IMG/VR virus record: IMGVR_UViG_3300037047_000121
DNA length: 64,000 nt
Strand: one strand, 5' to 3'
Origin: a virus
The notes under the pieces: model-generated
What the model saw: only the letters and a program-made list of their open reading frames with translations
What the model was told of the DNA's origin: nothing
The model's database searches: none
Made by a program: the position numbers and the translations under genes
Part shown: piece by piece, positions 48,755 to 58,523 of the stretch
Layout of the letters: each line of letters opens with the position of its first letter
How positions within the stretch are numbered: position 1 is the first letter of the stretch

Positions 48755-49106
48755 TCTGCAGTTCCTAGAATTCAAACCTGAAACTCAGATTATTCTCGAC
48801 GGTTGTCTTGTGCCCCACATCACCGCGTCCAAGACGGAGGACGAGAAATTCATACACCTCTCACTAGATCATCGGTTCGGCATTAATGTGTCAACCGATC
48901 ATGTGTACGAGGTGGTGTGGTTTTTAGCAAATGCTATGGCATTTGCCGCAGGGTTTTCATGCTTTGGGGAGAACTGTCAAAAAGTGAACCCGTTCAACCG
49001 CCAGATCCTGGCAGTCACGGGTGTCTCCCACGAGGAACATCCAGCACCCCCCAAGCTGGAACTGGTGCGTGGTACAAATGAAACCGAAAATGAGAAGTCC
49101 GAATGA
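48744..49106 (+). CDS. hypothetical protein
   Basis: ORF track. Confidence 0.45.
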   Translation: MMSDLQFLEFKPETQIILDGCLVPHITASKTEDEKFIHLSLDHRFGINVSTDHVYEVVWFLANAMAFAAGFSCFGENCQKVNPFNRQILAVTGVSHEEHPAPPKLELVRGTNETENEKSE

Positions 49107-49474
49107 AAACCCGACATGGATTCATATCCAATAGCAGTTCGACTAGTTTCACGATTGCCGTCAAGGGCACTCTCCATGACTCGATACTTCGAAAGGTTTT
49201 TGGAGTGCCCGAAACATCTCCGCTCGGGTACTTCGCTTGGGATCTGGCGAAAGTCATGGCTGAGCGTGCCGAGCTGCTTGACGGGGAAGAGCTTCGTCTG
49301 ACGATTGAGTGCGACGGAAATCGCTTCTACCAGGAACTGGCCGATCAGGGGTTCACGATCTACCGAGGAAGTGTTTCAGACCAAGCGTGCGATCCCATCG
49401 AACGAGCCCTATGTGCCATGACTTTCAACTACCGGACGGATGACCTTCTGATCGTCAAAAATGAAACTCTGTAG
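49103..49474 (+). CDS. MKTRxGFVSNSS-family protein, paralog 1 of 9
   Basis: N-terminus MKTRHGFISNSSSTSFTIAVKG; ORF track. Confidence 0.6.
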   Translation: MKTRHGFISNSSSTSFTIAVKGTLHDSILRKVFGVPETSPLGYFAWDLAKVMAERAELLDGEELRLTIECDGNRFYQELADQGFTIYRGSVSDQACDPIERALCAMTFNYRTDDLLIVKNETL

Positions 49475-49482
49475 GAGGTTTC

Positions 49483-49986
49483 ATGAAAGTGAGAGCAGGT
49501 TTCGTATCCAATAGCTCATCCTCCAGCTTCGTGGTCGGATTCCCCTACAAACCAAAAACGGTGGAGGAACTGAGGTACCGGCTGTTCGGGGACAAAGAGT
49601 TGTTCCCGGGATATTATGATGACGTCGAGTTTCCGACCAGTCAGATCGCAGAGGTCGTGTTCCGGGACTTGAATCAGCAGGAACCGATGAACCAGCAGGA
49701 GGTGCTCGAAGAGATCCGGTCCGGATATTTCGACGGGCATCCGGAGTTCAGTTACCACTACGATCCGAAAGAAACGGATGAGCAGATGCGGGAGCGCTGG
49801 GACGAGGAGTCTCGTCAAACCGATGCCGCTGCGGAGGCGCTCTTCCAGCGGGAGATTGCACCCCGGTGGGAGAAACTAGAGTTCTACAGGTTCACGTACA
49901 GTGACAACGACGGACCGCTCCAGACCACCATGGAGCACGGCGGAATTTTCGACGCCCTGACGCATCTGCGCATTTCCCACCACTGA
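49483..49986 (+). CDS. MKTRxGFVSNSS-family protein, paralog 2 of 9
   Basis: N-terminus MKVRAGFVSNSSSSSFVVGF; RBS GTAGGAGG. Confidence 0.6.
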   Translation: MKVRAGFVSNSSSSSFVVGFPYKPKTVEELRYRLFGDKELFPGYYDDVEFPTSQIAEVVFRDLNQQEPMNQQEVLEEIRSGYFDGHPEFSYHYDPKETDEQMRERWDEESRQTDAAAEALFQREIAPRWEKLEFYRFTYSDNDGPLQTTMEHGGIFDALTHLRISHH

Positions 49987-50034
49987 GTCGCCCAAAAAAG
50001 AGTAGAGACCCCTGCAAGCAGCAGGAGGCTCATC

Positions 50035-50391
50035 ATGACCGTTTCCGAATTGATCCGTGTGTTGCGGGAGTTCCCCCAGGACGCTTACGTGGTGGACTGG
50101 TATCAGGATTGCGACCAGAGTTCCCTGGAACACGTCAAGGGGATCCACCTGGGGAGGGCTAGAATGCGCCCCGACGGTCTTCTGAACCCTGATGAGGTCT
50201 GGGGGGAAGAGGGAGTTTGTGAGGCTGAAGGGGTGCCGGTCAAAACGGTCTCTTTCATCCTCTCGCACGAGCGGTCGGATGAGTACGACCGGGTAGTGAA
50301 AGAGGCGTGGCAAGCGGAACGCGCGGCAGCCCTTGAGGCGCTGTATCAGACAAGCATCGACCTGGACGAGGTGCTGCGTGACCAAGACTGA
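50035..50391 (+). CDS. hypothetical protein
   Basis: ORF track. Confidence 0.45.
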   Translation: MTVSELIRVLREFPQDAYVVDWYQDCDQSSLEHVKGIHLGRARMRPDGLLNPDEVWGEEGVCEAEGVPVKTVSFILSHERSDEYDRVVKEAWQAERAAALEALYQTSIDLDEVLRDQD

Positions 50392-50430
50392 GGTGGCCAA
50401 ACTGGCACGAATCCCGAGCGTCAAACGGAT

Positions 50431-50614
50431 GATCGAGGCTCAGGGTGACAAGCAGTACCAGCACCTGACGTGGGAACTGGTACTCCCGGACGATCCGAGA
50501 TTCGAAACGAAACGCCCGGTGGTGGTACTCCGCCGCCAGGATCGGATCGTGGACTTCGTAGCCATCTCCGTGGTCGAGGCTGAGTCCCTCCTGGAGCAGG
50601 AAAAAGCGGCATGA
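50431..50614 (+). CDS. hypothetical small protein (start uncertain)
   Basis: Part of track ORF 50333..50614. Confidence 0.3.
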
Positions 50615-51075
50615 AGGTACGGTCGGGTTTCGTATCCAACAGCAGCACCACCAGTTTCGCGCTGATCGGGTGGAAACTGCCTCTGCCGAAAACCCCCGCG
50701 GGGCTTTGGGAACTCCTTCATAAATTGGGGTATACGCCAAAACCACCCCTGCCGGACACTTGGTGCCTGGACGATTCCGCGGAGGACTATTCGGATCTCG
50801 AAGAGAACTCCCGGATTTTCGAGATCATCAATCATTTCAGGTTCAGTAATCGAAAAGGTTGGTCCGTTCGGGTCGGGATCCAGACCTGGGATGGGGGCCC
50901 TGGGGTTGATGACGGGAAGATGCTGATTGGAGTGGAGTCCTGCGAGGATTGCGATGGCCGCCCCCTAGAGGAAGTGGCCGAGCAGATCAATGCGCTGCGG
51001 GAAAAACTCGGCAAGTCGGACAAAGAGATGGGCGGACTGCGTGTTTTCGTTGACCGAGCCGAACAAGGCACCTGA
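50611..51075 (+). CDS. MKTRxGFVSNSS-family protein, paralog 3 of 9
   Basis: N-terminus MKVRSGFVSNSSTTSFALIG. Confidence 0.6.
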   Translation: MKVRSGFVSNSSTTSFALIGWKLPLPKTPAGLWELLHKLGYTPKPPLPDTWCLDDSAEDYSDLEENSRIFEIINHFRFSNRKGWSVRVGIQTWDGGPGVDDGKMLIGVESCEDCDGRPLEEVAEQINALREKLGKSDKEMGGLRVFVDRAEQGT

Positions 51076-51090
51076 GATCGGAGACTGTCA

Positions 51091-51795
51091 ATGGACTGGG
51101 AGTGGCTTGGGATCTGGTACAACTGGCCGTTTCTGATCCCGTTCATGTTCGCTATCATTTACATCCTCGTAATTGACTTGCTGATCGGTGGGATTGGCCA
51201 TCTTTTCGGGGGTGACACCGACGTTGATGTTTCCGCTGACCACGATGCGGATGTTTCTGTCGATCACGACGTTGACGTAGGACATGCCGATAACATTTGG
51301 GTGGCGAGCCTACACTGGATTGGTGTGGGAAAAGTCCCCGTGTTGATCCTTCTGGAGAGTTTTCTCCTCCTGTTCGGAGGCACGGGCCTGATCATCAACT
51401 GCATTTGGCACGACGTAGCACCAAAAAGCATGGGACCGCTGTCCCTCATTGTAGCCCTTCCTGTGGCCTTCATTGTTAGCGTGCCTGCGACACGGTGGCT
51501 GGCTCAGGTATTGGCTTGGCTGCTTCCCTCTGATGCCACGATTACCCGCGTAGCTGGAGGATTCACGGGTGAATGGGGCACAGTCATCTCGACGGTCACA
51601 ACCGAGTCCGGTCAAGTTTTGATTCCCGGCACGGGAACGATTCCAGATACGGTATTGAATTGCACACGGGATCCGCTCAACACAGCGGAGGATATCCCCT
51701 GTGAGACGAAAATTGTAGTGGTGGATTACCTAGCTGGTACGAACAGTTACACAGTGGCCCCTATGGACATCCCCAGGCTAGGAGGTGATGAATGA
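51091..51795 (+). CDS. NfeD-like membrane protein
   Basis: N-terminal TM helices (WPFLIPFMFAIIYILVIDLLIGGIG; VLILLESFLLLFGGTGLII) and a C-terminal beta-rich domain; directly precedes an SPFH/flotillin gene with an ATGA overlap, the canonical NfeD-SPFH operon arrangement. Confidence 0.6.
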   Translation: MDWEWLGIWYNWPFLIPFMFAIIYILVIDLLIGGIGHLFGGDTDVDVSADHDADVSVDHDVDVGHADNIWVASLHWIGVGKVPVLILLESFLLLFGGTGLIINCIWHDVAPKSMGPLSLIVALPVAFIVSVPATRWLAQVLAWLLPSDATITRVAGGFTGEWGTVISTVTTESGQVLIPGTGTIPDTVLNCTRDPLNTAEDIPCETKIVVVDYLAGTNSYTVAPMDIPRLGGDE

Positions 51796-53930
51796 CAGAT
51801 CTACTGACGCTGGGAACTGTAGCTGAACGGATGGAGGAAGGTAGCGGAATGAACGGACTGATCATGGCGGGTATCGTGGCAGGAGGGATTGTCGTCCTGT
51901 TGGTCGGCATTATCCTGGCAATCAAAACTTTCAGGAAGGTGCCCAAGGCGGACGAGGCGCTCGTCAAAACGGGTACAGGCAAAGCGCCTACGGTCAGTAC
52001 CGGCGGTGGGCTCTGGGTCATCCCGATGTTCCATCAGGTAGCTCGTGTCACCCTTCAGGCGATTCGTATTCCTATCGATCGTATGGGGGCGGACTCGGTT
52101 CCCTCGAAGGACATGATCCCCTCCGAGATCAAGGGGGAGATGTTCGTTCAGGTCAATCCGCAGGATCCCAAGGCGATCGTCCTCGCCGTGCAGAGCCTCG
52201 GTGTTAGCAATGACCCAGGGCAGATGGCTAAGACGGTTCAGGAGAAGATCAAGTCCCAGATCACGGATGCCCTCCGAACGGCGGCGTTCAAAAAGACTTT
52301 CATCGAACTCAACTCGCAGAAAAAAGAGTTCGGTGAGGAGGTACAGAAACTCCTCCAGGTCGACCTGGGCAAAATGGGTCTTACCCTGACCACGGTCGCC
52401 ATCACACACGTAACCCAGGGTCAGTTCAACAAGGACGCCGGGGATGTGTTGAGTGCAGAGGGTCGTCGCAACGTTGCCGAGACCGTCAAACGCAACGAGC
52501 AGCAGACGAACGAGATCACGAAAAAGGCTGAGATCCAGATCCAGCAGCAGAACGTCGACGCCCGGGAACAGGCACTCACCCTCGACCTGCGCCAGCGGCA
52601 GCGTGAAGCCGACCAGAAACGACAGGTAGCCGAGTACGAGGCTACGCAGGCGGCGGAACAGAAGAAGCAGGTCTTGCTCCAGGAGCAGGCACAGGCAGAG
52701 GCTGCTGCAGCCCAGTCGCGTGCTATCGCAGAGGCCAATGCTAAAGAGGCGGAGAAAGCGTCCAAAGCGCAGATCGCGCAGGAAGAGCAGGTCGCCATCC
52801 GCACGTCACAGGCAGGGGCAGCCAAGAAAGCCGCCGCTGAGACCGCGCAGATCACGATTGCGGAAGCCGAGGCACTGCGTAAGGTGGCTGAGGAAGAGGC
52901 CGCCCGGAAGAAGCTGGAGGCCGAGATTGCCAAGGCTAAGTCGGTCGAAACCGCAGAGATCGAAAAACGGAAAGTGATCGAGGCAGCCCAGATCGAAAAG
53001 GACCAGACGATTAAGGTCGCGGACGAGCAGCGCCAGCAGGCCGTAACCGAGGCCGCCGTCGCCCGTGAGCAGGCGGTCGCCCTGAAGCGTGCCGAGGAAG
53101 CAGCCGCCCGTGCCACGCAGGCCGCCGCCGAGGCCAAGCAGAAGTCCGCAGAGGAGTCCATCATCACGGTCAAGGCAACGGCTGAGGCCAACCGCCGCAA
53201 AGACATCGTGACAATTCAGGCGGAAGAGGACGCGTCCAAGGATCGGATTCAGGCCGACAAGCTGGCTTACGTCATGGCCAAAAAGGCAGAGGGAGAGCGC
53301 GACGCTGCGCAGAAGATGGCCGAGGCAACCAAGGCGGAAGCCGAGGGTCGTGCCGAGGCTCAAAAGGCCCAGGCCGATGGTGCCGCGCAGGCGCTCAAGA
53401 CCGAGGCCGAAGCCTATGCCGCGAACCTGACGACCCGTGCGTCGGCAGAATTTGAGGCAGCCGAGAAGCAGGCCGAGGCACGCAAGAAGCTGGCCGAAGC
53501 TGCCCTGAGGGAGGGTGAGGCGCAGGCCGAGGCACGACGTAAGATGGTCGAGGCCGAGAACTCGGTGTCGGCCTCGATCATGATCAAAGATGCGGTCATC
53601 GAGGCGATCAAGGTCGCCCCATCCATCCTCCACGAACTGATGGCGCCAGTCGCCAACGTCGCCCACGACGTCAAGATCCTTCAGGTCAACGGGCTCAACG
53701 GTGAGGGTAACGGCCAGGGCCAGTCGATCCCGGGCACCATCCTGGGCACGGGCATGGCGCTTTCCGGAGCCCTTCCGGTCGTTCGGGAGATGGCCGAGAG
53801 CCTCAGAAACAACTCGGACGTGCAGGCCCTCACGGGCGAACTGACGGGGCTCATCAAGGGAGCCCTCAAGACGGTCGCGTCCGGGGTCACTGAGGGCGCC
53901 AAGGCCGGTCTCACCGGGGGCAACGCCTGA
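51792..53930 (+). CDS. flotillin-like SPFH (band 7) domain protein
   Basis: N-terminal TM (IMAGIVAGGIVVLLVGIILAI), SPFH-like ALVKTGTGKAPTVSTGGGLWVIPMFHQV..., then >400 aa of Ala/Glu/Lys/Gln-rich coiled coil and a C-terminal Gly-rich tail, as in FloT/YqiK. Confidence 0.75.
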   Translation: MTDLLTLGTVAERMEEGSGMNGLIMAGIVAGGIVVLLVGIILAIKTFRKVPKADEALVKTGTGKAPTVSTGGGLWVIPMFHQVARVTLQAIRIPIDRMGADSVPSKDMIPSEIKGEMFVQVNPQDPKAIVLAVQSLGVSNDPGQMAKTVQEKIKSQITDALRTAAFKKTFIELNSQKKEFGEEVQKLLQVDLGKMGLTLTTVAITHVTQGQFNKDAGDVLSAEGRRNVAETVKRNEQQTNEITKKAEIQIQQQNVDAREQALTLDLRQRQREADQKRQVAEYEATQAAEQKKQVLLQEQAQAEAAAAQSRAIAEANAKEAEKASKAQIAQEEQVAIRTSQAGAAKKAAAETAQITIAEAEALRKVAEEEAARKKLEAEIAKAKSVETAEIEKRKVIEAAQIEKDQTIKVADEQRQQAVTEAAVAREQAVALKRAEEAAARATQAAAEAKQKSAEESIITVKATAEANRRKDIVTIQAEEDASKDRIQADKLAYVMAKKAEGERDAAQKMAEATKAEAEGRAEAQKAQADGAAQALKTEAEAYAANLTTRASAEFEAAEKQAEARKKLAEAALREGEAQAEARRKMVEAENSVSASIMIKDAVIEAIKVAPSILHELMAPVANVAHDVKILQVNGLNGEGNGQGQSIPGTILGTGMALSGALPVVREMAESLRNNSDVQALTGELTGLIKGALKTVASGVTEGAKAGLTGGNA

Positions 53931-54784
53931 TGAACAGACGGGTTCCTGCGGGTTCCAAGGGCACGAGACGGGGCTCCCCCAAAACCCGCAGGAACCCGTC
54001 TCGACGAAGGACGCGCCAAATGAAAAGTCAGCTTCCCGCGGGTGACCAGATCCATCCGGTCACCCGTGAGGAGGCCGCCTCGTTATCGAGCGGTCTCCTC
54101 ACGATGATAGAAAAGAACCCGGGGTTGGGGGAACAGCCCCTCATGGTACTCCTCACCCGGCTCCTGTTGGGGGTCACGGGTCAGCGTACCCTTGCAGTCA
54201 TCCCCCAAATTGCCTCTCAGGAGATGCCCGACAAACAGCCGTTGACCGAGTTGACCGAAGCGAACGAGAAACTTCGGTCCAAGGTCAAGGAACTGGAAGA
54301 TCGGGTAGAGGATCTCCAAGGGGAACTGGACGACGCCAACATGGCCATCATGTCCAAACCGGACGAGCAGGAGATGCTGCGGCTGACGGCCGAGGCCGAA
54401 CGCCTGGGGGGGAAACTCCGGGACGCCGAGGGACTCGTCCGTACCTGTGAGGATCAGATCGCAAGGTTGGGCCGGGATCTCAAAGCTGCGTCAGATCGTG
54501 AGACCCTCCTGAAAACCCAGCTTAAAGGTGCCGAGACGAAACAGGAGGCACTCTGGCGGGATTTTGAGGCCGCCACCGCGAAGGCGAACACCCAGGACGC
54601 ACTGGTCAAAAAGATCAAAGAGATCGAGTGGAGTTCCAAGCACCCATCGTTCACGTGGTCTCGGACGGGCGCCAAAATCGCCTGCTGCCCCGTGTGCCAG
54701 GGACTGGAGCCCAACGCCTCGCCTCACCGGGAAACGGGACACCGCAACGGGTGCGCCCTACAGAAAGTCATCAAACTTATCTAG
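53930..54784 (+). CDS. hypothetical coiled-coil protein with C-terminal CCPVCQG...C motif (start uncertain)
   Basis: ORF track. Confidence 0.45.
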   Translation: MNRRVPAGSKGTRRGSPKTRRNPSRRRTRQMKSQLPAGDQIHPVTREEAASLSSGLLTMIEKNPGLGEQPLMVLLTRLLLGVTGQRTLAVIPQIASQEMPDKQPLTELTEANEKLRSKVKELEDRVEDLQGELDDANMAIMSKPDEQEMLRLTAEAERLGGKLRDAEGLVRTCEDQIARLGRDLKAASDRETLLKTQLKGAETKQEALWRDFEAATAKANTQDALVKKIKEIEWSSKHPSFTWSRTGAKIACCPVCQGLEPNASPHRETGHRNGCALQKVIKLI

Positions 54785-55330: not shown

Positions 55331-55582
55331 ATGTATGACGAGTACTGGACTAAGCGAGATGGTACGCAGATCCTCGTCGGACACATGGAGGAGGGACATC
55401 TTCGGAACACCCTCCGGTTGCTGGAACGCAAAGGACTCCTGAAAAACGCGTCGCATTTGCCAGAAGAAGCCGCCAGACAATCTCTCCGAGAATATATTCA
55501 GTTCCAACGCGAAGCTGCGCTGGACGACGAACTGGGGGAACTAGCCATGTCCGGTATGGACTATTATGGAAGTCTAGAGTGA
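55331..55582 (+). CDS. hypothetical small protein
   Basis: ORF track. Confidence 0.4.
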   Translation: MYDEYWTKRDGTQILVGHMEEGHLRNTLRLLERKGLLKNASHLPEEAARQSLREYIQFQREAALDDELGELAMSGMDYYGSLE

Positions 55583-55980
55583 AAACACGAGCCGGTTTTG
55601 TATCCAACAGTTCATCGTCGTCTTTCGCCATTGACAGGATGCTCCTGACTCCAGAGCAGGTTGAAAAGGTCCGGCATTACTACCTGACAATGCTGGAGAT
55701 GACGGCCCCTCAGACCGAAGCTCCGGGATACCCCAAAGAGGAGCTTCGGGATTCCTATGAATACAAAGACCCGAGATACTACCGAGTCTGGCGAGATGCC
55801 CAGGGAAACCCCACTGACGAGATGGTCTACGTGGATGACGGCTGGAACGTCACAGTGGGCGAGGGTGTCATCTGGTTCGATACGTCGATGGACAACTTTG
55901 ACATGAAGGGGTTTCTCCGACGCTTGGGTGTAGACCCCCGAGCTTTTCAGGACTTCTCGACCCGGAGCAGGAAAACCTGA
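55579..55980 (+). CDS. MKTRxGFVSNSS-family protein, paralog 4 of 9
   Basis: N-terminus (GTG start) MKTRAGFVSNSSSSSFAIDR. Confidence 0.55.
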   Translation: MKTRAGFVSNSSSSSFAIDRMLLTPEQVEKVRHYYLTMLEMTAPQTEAPGYPKEELRDSYEYKDPRYYRVWRDAQGNPTDEMVYVDDGWNVTVGEGVIWFDTSMDNFDMKGFLRRLGVDPRAFQDFSTRSRKT

Positions 55981-56016
55981 AAGACATGGCGGACTAGGCG
56001 CCCCGGAGGTAACCCC

Positions 56017-56274
56017 ATGGCAAATGTAACTGACTGGACAGCCCAGGCTCGTGCAAACGTGGCAGCAGCGTTGGCCGATCTTGAGCGGCTCGTGTTAGAG
56101 CACGGCCAAGATGAAGTGCCGCCCCTTCAGTTTGACGATCATCTCGTCGAGAGTCTCTCCTACAAACTGAGCAACCTCGGTCATGCCTCCAGGTTAGCCC
56201 TGGTGTACGCCCGCGATGCCCTACAGGTAGCTCAGAGGACTCACCAGCCGGAGCACGCTCATGAAAATCCGTGA
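56017..56274 (+). CDS. hypothetical protein
   Basis: ORF track. Confidence 0.4.
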   Translation: MANVTDWTAQARANVAAALADLERLVLEHGQDEVPPLQFDDHLVESLSYKLSNLGHASRLALVYARDALQVAQRTHQPEHAHENP

Positions 56275-56683
56275 CGGGTTCGTATCCAACAGCAGCACGA
56301 CATCTTTCACATGTCGGGTATGTGGTCAGACCGAGGCATTCTCGGACTGCGTCAGCTACTCCGAGATGGATCTGTACCGCTGCGAAAAGGGCCACAAGTT
56401 CTGTGGTGAGCACATTCTCCCGATCCCGCCCGGTTGTGAGAAGGAACACAAGAATTCCGAGGCCGACTGGGAGGATGAGGATGAGACCCCATCTTACAAA
56501 AACCACTATGCCATGTCGGCTGAACGGTGCCCCGTTTGCCAGATGACAACGATGGATATGGATCTCGTTGAGCCGTTTCTGCTCAAGATGCTGGGTTGGG
56601 ATCGGCAGAAAATGTTCAACGAAACCTGCAAGGTTAGCGGCGGATCCTATGAGAAGCTGCTAGATTTTCTATCGAAAAAATAG
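56261..56683 (+). CDS. MKTRxGFVSNSS-family protein, paralog 5 of 9 (zinc-ribbon subtype)
   Basis: MKIRDGFVSNSSTTSFTCRVCG...C..GHKFCGEH...CPVCQ. Confidence 0.6.
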   Translation: MKIRDGFVSNSSTTSFTCRVCGQTEAFSDCVSYSEMDLYRCEKGHKFCGEHILPIPPGCEKEHKNSEADWEDEDETPSYKNHYAMSAERCPVCQMTTMDMDLVEPFLLKMLGWDRQKMFNETCKVSGGSYEKLLDFLSKK

Positions 56684-56693
56684 GGGTCTAGAC

Positions 56694-57113
56694 ATGAAAA
56701 CAAGAAACGGGTTCGTCTCCAACAGTAGCACCACCTCGTTCACCTGTGACGTGTGCGGTCACGTCGAGGGTTACCACGACAGCCTGGGTTACTCGGATAT
56801 CGGAGCCTATGGCTGTGAAAACGGGCATAGTTTTTGTGATAAGCACCTCCTGCCCAAACCAAAAAACCTAGAACCCCAGCACCAGGAACTGGACGAGGAC
56901 GACGAGTGCAAGATCGACAGCCATTATGAGTTGTCGGCTATCCGTTGTCCCCTCTGCCAGTTGACAACGATGAACCAGTCCCTGATGGAGGATTTCCTCC
57001 TCAAAGCGCTGGGCTGGACGAAAAAGCAGGCACTCGAGGAGGCCAAAATCCGTGGCGGCGGAACCTACGCTGGACTCCTGGCCTATCTCGGGAAAAGGAA
57101 ACCCCGGAGATGA
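56694..57113 (+). CDS. MKTRxGFVSNSS-family protein, paralog 6 of 9 (zinc-ribbon subtype)
   Basis: MKTRNGFVSNSSTTSFTCDVCG...C.NGHSFCDKH...CPLCQ; clear paralog of 56261. Confidence 0.6.
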   Translation: MKTRNGFVSNSSTTSFTCDVCGHVEGYHDSLGYSDIGAYGCENGHSFCDKHLLPKPKNLEPQHQELDEDDECKIDSHYELSAIRCPLCQLTTMNQSLMEDFLLKALGWTKKQALEEAKIRGGGTYAGLLAYLGKRKPRR

Positions 57114-57364
57114 CACCTGAGGATCGGGCTGAGTTAGCCCAAAACCTGACCGAGCGCATCCTCGTGTGGAAAACGCTCTCGTTGCCTGTATGCTGGTACG
57201 AACTGGAGGATATCCTCCGGGGGATCGTCACCCTTGCCTCGGAGGCCCCCAAAACGCCCCACCAGTGCCCCATCTGCAATGGGACGGGGAGCGTAAGGGC
57301 TGATGGAATCGTAGCGACCAAGCCGTGTCCCGTGTGTTTGGGGGCGCGAATCCTGTGGGGATAG
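57110..57364 (+). CDS. small protein with DnaJ-type CxxCxGxG zinc finger
   Basis: CPICNGTGS...CPVCLG; ATG 57110 within track ORF 56945..57364. Confidence 0.4.
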   Translation: MTPEDRAELAQNLTERILVWKTLSLPVCWYELEDILRGIVTLASEAPKTPHQCPICNGTGSVRADGIVATKPCPVCLGARILWG

Positions 57365-57395
57365 AGTAGATCCATTCGTCCAAGGAGGAGTCTAC

Positions 57396-57680
57396 ATGAA
57401 AACGCGGTCCGGTTTCGTCAGCAACAGTTCCAGTAGCTCATTTGCCATCCGCCTGTCCGACCTGAGTCCCCAGCAGATCGAGGATATCCACAATCATCTG
57501 GAACTGGCCCGGACTTCCTATAAAACTTATGACCTCGGGAGCACTCAGGATGAAGCCATGTGGTCGATTGTTGAGACCGACCGCGTGATCTCAGGGAACA
57601 CGTACATGGATAACTTCGACATGCACGAGTTCCTGATCCTGATCGGAGTTCACTCTAGCTTGATTACGTGGGAGGAATGA
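57396..57680 (+). CDS. MKTRxGFVSNSS-family protein, paralog 7 of 9
   Basis: MKTRSGFVSNSSSSSFAIRLSD; RBS CAAGGAGGAG. Confidence 0.6.
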   Translation: MKTRSGFVSNSSSSSFAIRLSDLSPQQIEDIHNHLELARTSYKTYDLGSTQDEAMWSIVETDRVISGNTYMDNFDMHEFLILIGVHSSLITWEE

Positions 57681-57681
57681 C

Positions 57682-58095
57682 ATGAAAACCCGGACTGGGT
57701 TTGTCAGTAATAGCTCAACGTCATCCTTTATGTGCGAGATCTGTCTGTCCGTCGAGGCAGGCATGGATGTCAGTCACCGGGACGTTGGGATGATGCGGTG
57801 TCACGCAGATCACACGTTCTGCGAGGGTCATGCAACCTTGGAGATGACCGACGAGGAACGGGATGCCTCCGAGGATGGTTACGAGGTTCCGGAGCGCATT
57901 TGCCCCATCTGTTCCCTCCAGAGGCTCTCGGTAGAGGATGAGCTTGCTTTCCTGCGTCGGGTGGCGGGGACGAACACTGCCGAAGGTTCCGCTGCCAAGG
58001 CGCGGGATATGTTCGGCACCTTCGCGGCGCTCCAGGAGAATTTCGGCAAAGTCCAGACCGTGTACGGTCGTTGGGTAGCGAAAAAGGACAAGTAA
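57682..58095 (+). CDS. MKTRxGFVSNSS-family protein, paralog 8 of 9 (zinc-ribbon subtype)
   Basis: MKTRTGFVSNSSTSSFMCEICL...CHADHTFCEGH...CPICS. Confidence 0.6.
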   Translation: MKTRTGFVSNSSTSSFMCEICLSVEAGMDVSHRDVGMMRCHADHTFCEGHATLEMTDEERDASEDGYEVPERICPICSLQRLSVEDELAFLRRVAGTNTAEGSAAKARDMFGTFAALQENFGKVQTVYGRWVAKKDK

Positions 58096-58097
58096 CC

Positions 58098-58523
58098 ATG
58101 AAAACCAGAAACGGGTTCGTCTCCAACAGCAGCACCACCAGCTTCTCCGCTGTCGGGGTCGTTTTCAAGGGACTGAGCGACCTGGAACGCAAACAGATGA
58201 TCGCCCGGCTCATCCAGGAGGACGGCCTGGAGATCCCGGATCCCGCCTCCGAGGACGAGAATGACCAGGACTGGTGGGGCTGGGAGTACCGCGACGTCCT
58301 CGAAATGGATGGTTACTACGCAGCGGAAAACACCGACGATGGCCTAGAAGAGGGCGAGTTTTTCCTGGGAGTTCTGCTCGCAAGGTGGAATGACGACGGG
58401 AACGAGACGACCAGGACAAATCTCCGCGACGTCATCAAAGTCCTCGACAGGATGCGGAACAAGCTGAATCTGCCCGAGGTGACACACCCGACTATCGTCC
58501 TAACCGGAACCAAATGCTCCTGA
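58098..58523 (+). CDS. MKTRxGFVSNSS-family protein, paralog 9 of 9
   Basis: MKTRNGFVSNSSTTSFSAVGV; internal Met of track ORF 58071..58523. Confidence 0.55.
   Translation: MKTRNGFVSNSSTTSFSAVGVVFKGLSDLERKQMIARLIQEDGLEIPDPASEDENDQDWWGWEYRDVLEMDGYYAAENTDDGLEEGEFFLGVLLARWNDDGNETTRTNLRDVIKVLDRMRNKLNLPEVTHPTIVLTGTKCS

What the first reader, a model, noticed from the sequence alone, without database searches (positions are those of the whole stretch)
51091..53930. NfeD-flotillin membrane-scaffold pair embedded in the paralog cluster
A polytopic membrane protein with a C-terminal beta-rich domain (51091-51795) is translationally coupled to a 712-aa SPFH/band-7 protein. The latter has an N-terminal TM, about 400 aa of AEKQ-rich coiled coil and a Gly-rich tail (51792-53930). 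This is the classic NfeD-FloT/YqiK operon architecture, here on a phage-like element and sitting between N-motif family members 3 and 4. It may indicate that the element organises a membrane microdomain, possibly the destination of the tagged proteins.
Basis: partly seen in the sequence, partly recalled or inferred. Interest (0 to 1): 0.55.

Follow-up and report, generated by a model that had tools for sequence, protein, structure and literature searches.

The report
Phage-borne flotillin–NfeD membrane scaffold module
The two genes are a genuine flotillin and its NfeD/YqiJ-type membrane partner, ordinary in bacteria but here carried with a conserved third gene on a probable large phage, so some big phages appear to bring their own membrane-scaffolding kit.

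Summary

- **Flotillin.** ORF 51792-53930 (712 aa) overlaps it by ATGA. It has an N-terminal anchor, Band_7 (2.2e-20), a 322-aa helical region, a Flot domain (3e-16) and a Gly-rich tail.
- **New here: a third gene.** Gene 54020-54784 encodes a coiled-coil protein ending in an invariant CxxC...GH...C motif. It follows flotillin in about 10 other metagenomic loci. One is a 281-kb contig with rIIA/rIIB.
- **Bacterial comparison.** Loci clearly bacterial by their neighbours have the pair only.
- **Rarity in phages.** Only one weak, partial hit among 50,697 deposited phage genomes. Nothing in PHROGs or in three IMG/VR pattern scans.
- **N-motif link.** Not supported: no other locus has that family nearby.

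Most likely the module builds a flotillin cage on the host inner membrane, which keeps the membrane and its proteins stable during infection. That role is inferred, not shown. It is a new variant of a known kind, of moderate interest.

The parts
51091..51795 (+). YqiJ/NfeD2-type membrane partner (234 aa). About three TM helices, a disordered acidic DxDxD loop (aa 42-65) and a C-terminal NfeD-type OB fold (aa ~156-225).
51556..51765 (+). C-terminal five-strand OB domain of the YqiJ-like protein. In NfeD proteins this is the domain that binds the SPFH partner.
51780..51795 (+). Translational coupling site: AGGAGG Shine-Dalgarno sequence plus an ATGA stop/start overlap.
   Evidence: Read directly from the sequence.
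51792..53930 (+). Flotillin (SPFH2, YqiK-like), 712 aa. Anchor aa 17-51, SPFH aa 53-233, Ala/Glu/Lys/Gln-rich helical region aa 234-555, Flot domain aa 556-670, Gly-rich tail.
   Evidence: Pfam Band_7 2.2e-20 and Flot 3e-16. PDB human flotillin-1 (9bq2, 9l3g) E 2e-4. BLASTP to E. coli YqiK 5e-31. 256 homologs, 65% identity at best. Composition.
53936..54001 (+). Perfect 19-bp inverted repeat with a 28-nt loop, in the spacer between flotillin and the third gene. Possibly an RNA hairpin that sets relative expression or mRNA stability. Its role is not established.
   Evidence: the repeat finder. RNA fold -47.9 kcal/mol, z -4.56, 0 of 200 shuffles as stable. Unique in the window. The spacer is absent in related loci, where the third gene abuts flotillin.
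54020..54784 (+). Third gene of the module (254 aa; the ORF is open from 53930). Conserved ~50-aa N-terminal region, central coiled coil, C-terminal EW..KH...CxxC...GH...C motif (probable zinc knuckle, aa 223-245 = 54686-54754). No TM segment.
   Evidence: Alignments A2 and A7 show invariant C223, C226, G240, H241, C245. hmmsearch finds it directly after flotillin in L002, L006, L008, L011, L014, L016, L017, L022, L023 and L024/L027. hhalign to L016: 99.8%. The 54020 start is supported by homolog N-termini and by two independent gene calls. Only coiled-coil noise in Pfam, PHROGs and PDB.

Best explanation
This is a three-gene flotillin module carried by a probable large phage.

**Gene 1** is a YqiJ/NfeD2-type inner-membrane protein. 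Its cytoplasmic OB domain is the partner-binding domain of NfeD proteins.

**Gene 2** is translationally coupled to gene 1. It is a long flotillin (SPFH2/YqiK type). By analogy with solved SPFH complexes, it should anchor by its N-terminus in the host inner membrane and oligomerise through its long helical region into a cage on the cytoplasmic face, with the NfeD partner stabilising the assembly.

**Gene 3** is a soluble coiled-coil protein with a CCHC zinc-knuckle-like end. It accompanies the pair in the phage-like loci and is absent from the loci that their neighbours show to be bacterial. It is most likely an accessory subunit or adaptor of the cage.

**Origin and role.** The pair appears to derive from bacterial flotillin operons of the Myxococcota/'Deltaproteobacteria' type. 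Expressed during infection, it most likely maintains or reorganises the host inner membrane. It could act as an ATP-independent scaffold or holdase for membrane proteins and membrane integrity over a long infection cycle.

**Shown:** domain identities, folds, operon structure, conservation and contexts.
**Inferred:** topology, cage formation, binding of gene 3, and the physiological role.
For: **Identity.**
- Pfam YqiJ_N, Band_7 and Flot.
- hhalign to E. coli YqiJ and BLASTP to YqiK.
- NfeD OB fold.
- Flotillin-1 cage structures are the only PDB sequence hits.

**Coupling.** ATGA overlap plus an AGGAGG Shine-Dalgarno sequence.

**Conservation of the trio.** Found in about 11 distinct loci.

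**Phage context.**
- rIIA (phrog_612, 2e-80) and Pfam Phage_T4_rIIB lie 2-4 kb upstream in L006 (281-kb contig), L014 and L017.
- Window ORFs hit phrog_7293 (5.5e-60; 172 T4-like phages), phrog_11532 (2e-30; Caulobacter jumbo phages), phrog_5845 and phrog_1479.

**Bacterial contexts have the pair only.** L003/L004/L009, L007 and the P0003 contig.

**Bacterial relatives.** Deltaproteobacteria MAG 61% identity, Myxococcota 47%.

**Mechanistic precedent.**
- NfeD-SPFH operons co-evolve (PMC2636767).
- S. aureus FloA-NfeD acts as an ATP-independent stabiliser of unfolded membrane proteins, with NfeD stabilising the flotillin oligomer (PMC11222466).
- Flotillin forms membrane-attached cages (PMC11260169, PMC13000311).
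Against: - No capsid, terminase or portal gene was found in the 64-kb window, so the viral nature of this particular element is inferred.
- Nothing shows expression, assembly or any infection phenotype.
- The third gene also follows flotillin in L011, a contig binned in a 'Proteobacteria' MAG whose nature I could not settle.
- One related phage-like locus (L015) lacks the third gene.
- Several pair-only loci (L019-21, L025, L026, L029) were not classified.
- In the NJ bootstrap tree, phage-context and bacterial-context flotillins interleave, so the direction and number of transfers are unresolved.
- The Pfam NfeD and YqiJ_OB HMMs do not hit the window protein itself.
Confidence: 0.6

Rival explanations
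1. The module has a lysis-timing or anti-exclusion role. It works in the same functional neighbourhood as rIIA/rIIB, protecting the energised inner membrane against premature lysis or against host abortive-infection effectors that depolarise or perforate the membrane. This is a more specific version of the best explanation.
For: In three related loci (L006, L014, L017) the trio lies 2-4 kb downstream of rIIA and rIIB in the same orientation. T4 rII proteins are membrane-associated and are needed to escape Rex exclusion (established knowledge). SPFH proteins link the Psp membrane-stress response to the membrane in B. subtilis (PMC8581546; abstract).
Against: No rIIA or rIIB homolog occurs in this window (tblastn E > 0.1) or near the trio in L002 or L008. 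Synteny within one phage lineage may only reflect common descent. There are no PADLOC hits and no functional data.
Confidence: 0.2
2. One reading: the flotillin microdomain is the destination of the N-motif (MKTRxGFVSNSS...) paralog family that flanks it.
For: Nine N-motif genes flank the module in this window (49103-51075 and 55579-58523). They are co-oriented and tightly packed with it.
Against: The motif is absent from all other module-bearing loci within 6-10 kb on each side. The family has no Pfam family above threshold and no relatives in deposited phages. Nothing links the two beyond adjacency.
Confidence: 0.05
3. The window is not a phage but a bacterial chromosome island or megaplasmid. 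On this reading the pair is an ordinary cellular yqiJ-yqiK-type operon.
For: The window carries a type I CRISPR-Cas locus (Cas6, Cas3 and a ~31-repeat array). It has no tRNA and no virion gene among the ORFs scanned. Equally close flotillins sit in bacterial contigs (P0004 65%, P0012 61%).
Against: Almost all ORFs are small, co-oriented and without Pfam families. Several match phage-only PHROG families. The window's third gene is otherwise seen in rII-bearing and similar phage-like contigs. Plasmid flotillins are at most 33% identical, over the SPFH domain only. Large phages with CRISPR-Cas are known (e.g. the title of PMC12607003, listed).
Confidence: 0.12
4. The module is a neutral passenger: a recently captured host operon with no function for the element.
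For: The flotillin is 57-65% identical to both bacterial-context and phage-context relatives, and the two interleave in the tree.
Against: All three ORFs are intact in about 11 loci. Apart from the module, the window, L008 and the L002/L006/L014 lineage share essentially no other genes in the stretches compared. Translational coupling is retained, and a context-associated third gene is conserved down to an invariant CCHC motif.
Confidence: 0.05

Closest known systems
E. coli yqiJ-yqiK operon (NfeD2-SPFH2 of Hinderhofer et al. 2009, PMC2636767)
   Same: Same gene order and orientation, with the membrane NfeD-like gene directly upstream of the flotillin. Same Pfam domains (YqiJ_N; Band_7 + Flot). 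Profile alignment covers YqiJ end to end, including its OB domain.
   Different: Only 25-27% identity. The flotillin is about 160 aa longer through an expanded helical region. The genes overlap (ATGA) rather than being separated by 26 nt. A third gene is attached. The context is phage-like rather than chromosomal.
B. subtilis yuaF-floT (NfeD2-FloT) and S. aureus floA-nfeD
   Different: The NCBIfam FloT equivalog scores 19.5 bits against a cut-off of 700, so this is not an ortholog. The N-terminal part of the partner is YqiJ_N-type with an acidic DxDxD loop.
Eukaryotic flotillin-1/2 cage (9bq2, 9l3g; PMC11260169, PMC13000311)
   Same: These are the only PDB sequence matches (E ~2e-4 over SPFH plus the start of the helical region). 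Same SPFH, long helix and C-terminal architecture.
   Different: Eukaryotic flotillins have no NfeD partner, are anchored by acylation or a hairpin, and have a much shorter helical region.
Sporadic SPFH-domain 'moron' genes in isolated phages (DLP5, DLP3, PHB09, GIB1; PMC5834331, PMC13239085)
   Same: SPFH-superfamily genes on phage genomes, with function unknown.
   Different: Those are single SPFH-domain or lipoprotein genes. They are too distant to be found by tblastn with this flotillin (1 weak hit in 50,697 records). No NfeD partner or third gene is reported for them.
T4 rIIA/rIIB membrane-associated lysis-inhibition/anti-exclusion genes
   Same: They are neighbours of the module in three related loci. 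Both concern the infected cell's inner membrane.
   Different: There is no sequence relationship, and no rII genes occur in this window.

Membership tests
Flotillin / SPFH2 (YqiK, FloT type) | SPFH (Band_7) domain | tested here: met
   PF01145 E 2.2e-20, 73.9 bits against a cut-off of 23.6, aa 53-233.
Flotillin / SPFH2 (YqiK, FloT type) | C-terminal flotillin domain after a long Ala/Glu-rich helical region | tested here: met
   PF15975 E 3e-16, aa 556-670. Residues 234-555 are 70% AEKQR with 0 Pro. No formal coiled-coil predictor was run.
Flotillin / SPFH2 (YqiK, FloT type) | N-terminal membrane anchor | tested here: met
   A single hydrophobic stretch at aa 17-51, Kyte-Doolittle maximum 2.87. 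Orientation with SPFH in the cytoplasm is inferred from flanking charges.
Flotillin / SPFH2 (YqiK, FloT type) | Orthology to B. subtilis FloT (NCBIfam equivalog NF058507) | tested here: not met
   19.5 bits against a cut-off of 700. This is a distinct flotillin subfamily of 650-720 aa, whose relatives are mostly uncultured bacteria and phage-like contigs.
Flotillin / SPFH2 (YqiK, FloT type) | Assembly into a high-order membrane-attached ring or cage | not testable with these tools
   Needs multimer modelling, BN-PAGE or cryo-EM.
NfeD2 / YqiJ family | Polytopic N-terminal membrane domain (YqiJ_N) | tested here: met
   PF21001 E 4.6e-16, aa 16-135. All 66 aligned homologs hit it.
NfeD2 / YqiJ family | C-terminal NfeD-type OB fold | tested here: met
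NfeD2 / YqiJ family | Sequence match to the Pfam NfeD (PF01957) or YqiJ_OB (PF07290) models | tested here: not met
   No hit for the window protein, even at E <= 1 on the isolated C-terminus. Close homologs give sub-threshold hits (P0122 E 0.0036; 5 of 66 NfeD and 2 of 66 YqiJ_OB). The domain is recognisable by fold and profile, not by the curated HMMs.
NfeD2 / YqiJ family | Encoded directly upstream of, and co-transcribed with, an SPFH gene | tested here: met
   ATGA overlap. The same arrangement occurs in every related locus.
NfeD2 / YqiJ family | Physical binding of the OB domain to the flotillin | not testable with these tools
   Needs co-purification or a multimer model.
Bacteriophage genome | Virion or packaging hallmark genes (capsid, portal, terminase) | tested here: inconclusive
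   None was found among about 60 window ORFs scanned against PHROGs. The window is only part of a contig of at least 138 kb.
Bacteriophage genome | Genes shared with known phages, and a module shared with hallmark-bearing phage contigs | tested here: met
   phrog_7293 5.5e-60, phrog_11532 2e-30, phrog_5845 and phrog_1479. tblastn to T4-like and Caulobacter jumbo phages. The trio lies next to rIIA/rIIB on a 281-kb contig.
Known anti-phage defence systems (PADLOC) | Match to any PADLOC model | tested here: not met
   No hit for ORF1 or ORF2. The third gene gives only coiled-coil noise against SMC-like models.

The most novel reading that the evidence does not exclude
A set of large phages encodes its own flotillin system. 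It would comprise a flotillin cage, an NfeD partner and a zinc-knuckle coiled-coil adaptor associated with the phage-like copies. The phage would use it to build a virus-specified compartment or platform on the host inner membrane, for example for assembly, genome protection or control of lysis and exclusion together with rII. On this reading it is more than a borrowed housekeeping function. It would be the first viral flotillin-based membrane organiser in prokaryotes.
Probability: 0.25. Interest if true: 0.75.

Novelty: new variant of a known kind. Interest (0 to 1): 0.5.

Why it matters
Flotillin-NfeD operons are widespread in bacteria, but their role is still debated, and they have not been described as phage genes.

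- I found no paper pairing flotillin with jumbo or huge phages.
- Two jumbo-phage reviews do not mention SPFH proteins.
- Deposited phage genomes lack this flotillin.

A conserved phage version with an extra dedicated subunit would matter in three ways:
- It would show that large phages manipulate host membrane microdomains with their own scaffold.
- It would give a natural, compact three-protein system in which to study the assembly and clients of flotillin cages.
- It would point to a possible functional link with the long-enigmatic rII genes.

If the role turns out to be simple membrane maintenance, this remains a modest addition to the list of host-derived auxiliary genes of large phages.

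Tried and rejected
**Searches that found little or nothing.**
- PHROGs and PADLOC for both proteins: no hits.
- IMG/VR pattern scans with the single flotillin, with flotillin alignment A1 and with YqiJ alignment A5: nothing. The third-gene alignment was too variable to scan.
- GTDB genome scans: the A1 alignment was too divergent to search with and the single protein found nothing. The tighter alignment A4 gave only 4 loci.
- PDB sequence search with ORF1 alone: nothing.
- PDB profile search with the third gene: only coiled-coil noise.
- Promoter and terminator scan: at chance level.
- tRNA scan: none.
- rIIA/rIIB homologs in the window: none.
- The N-motif family has no Pfam family above threshold and no match in deposited phages.

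**Methods that failed.**
- AF2 of ORF1 with a 2-sequence alignment failed for the C-terminal domain (pLDDT below 50). It succeeded only with the 66-sequence alignment.
- Crude strand and gene-size statistics could not separate phage from bacterial loci at this GC content.

**Readings rejected.**
- The 284-aa reading of the third gene from 53930. Its first 30 residues are an Arg-rich translation of the hairpin, and homologs align only from the 54020 start.
- The JGI label 'TolA-binding protein' for the third gene. No domain evidence supports it.
- Long minus-strand ORFs inside the flotillin gene (for example 52421-53206), which are artefacts of its Ala/Glu-rich codon composition.
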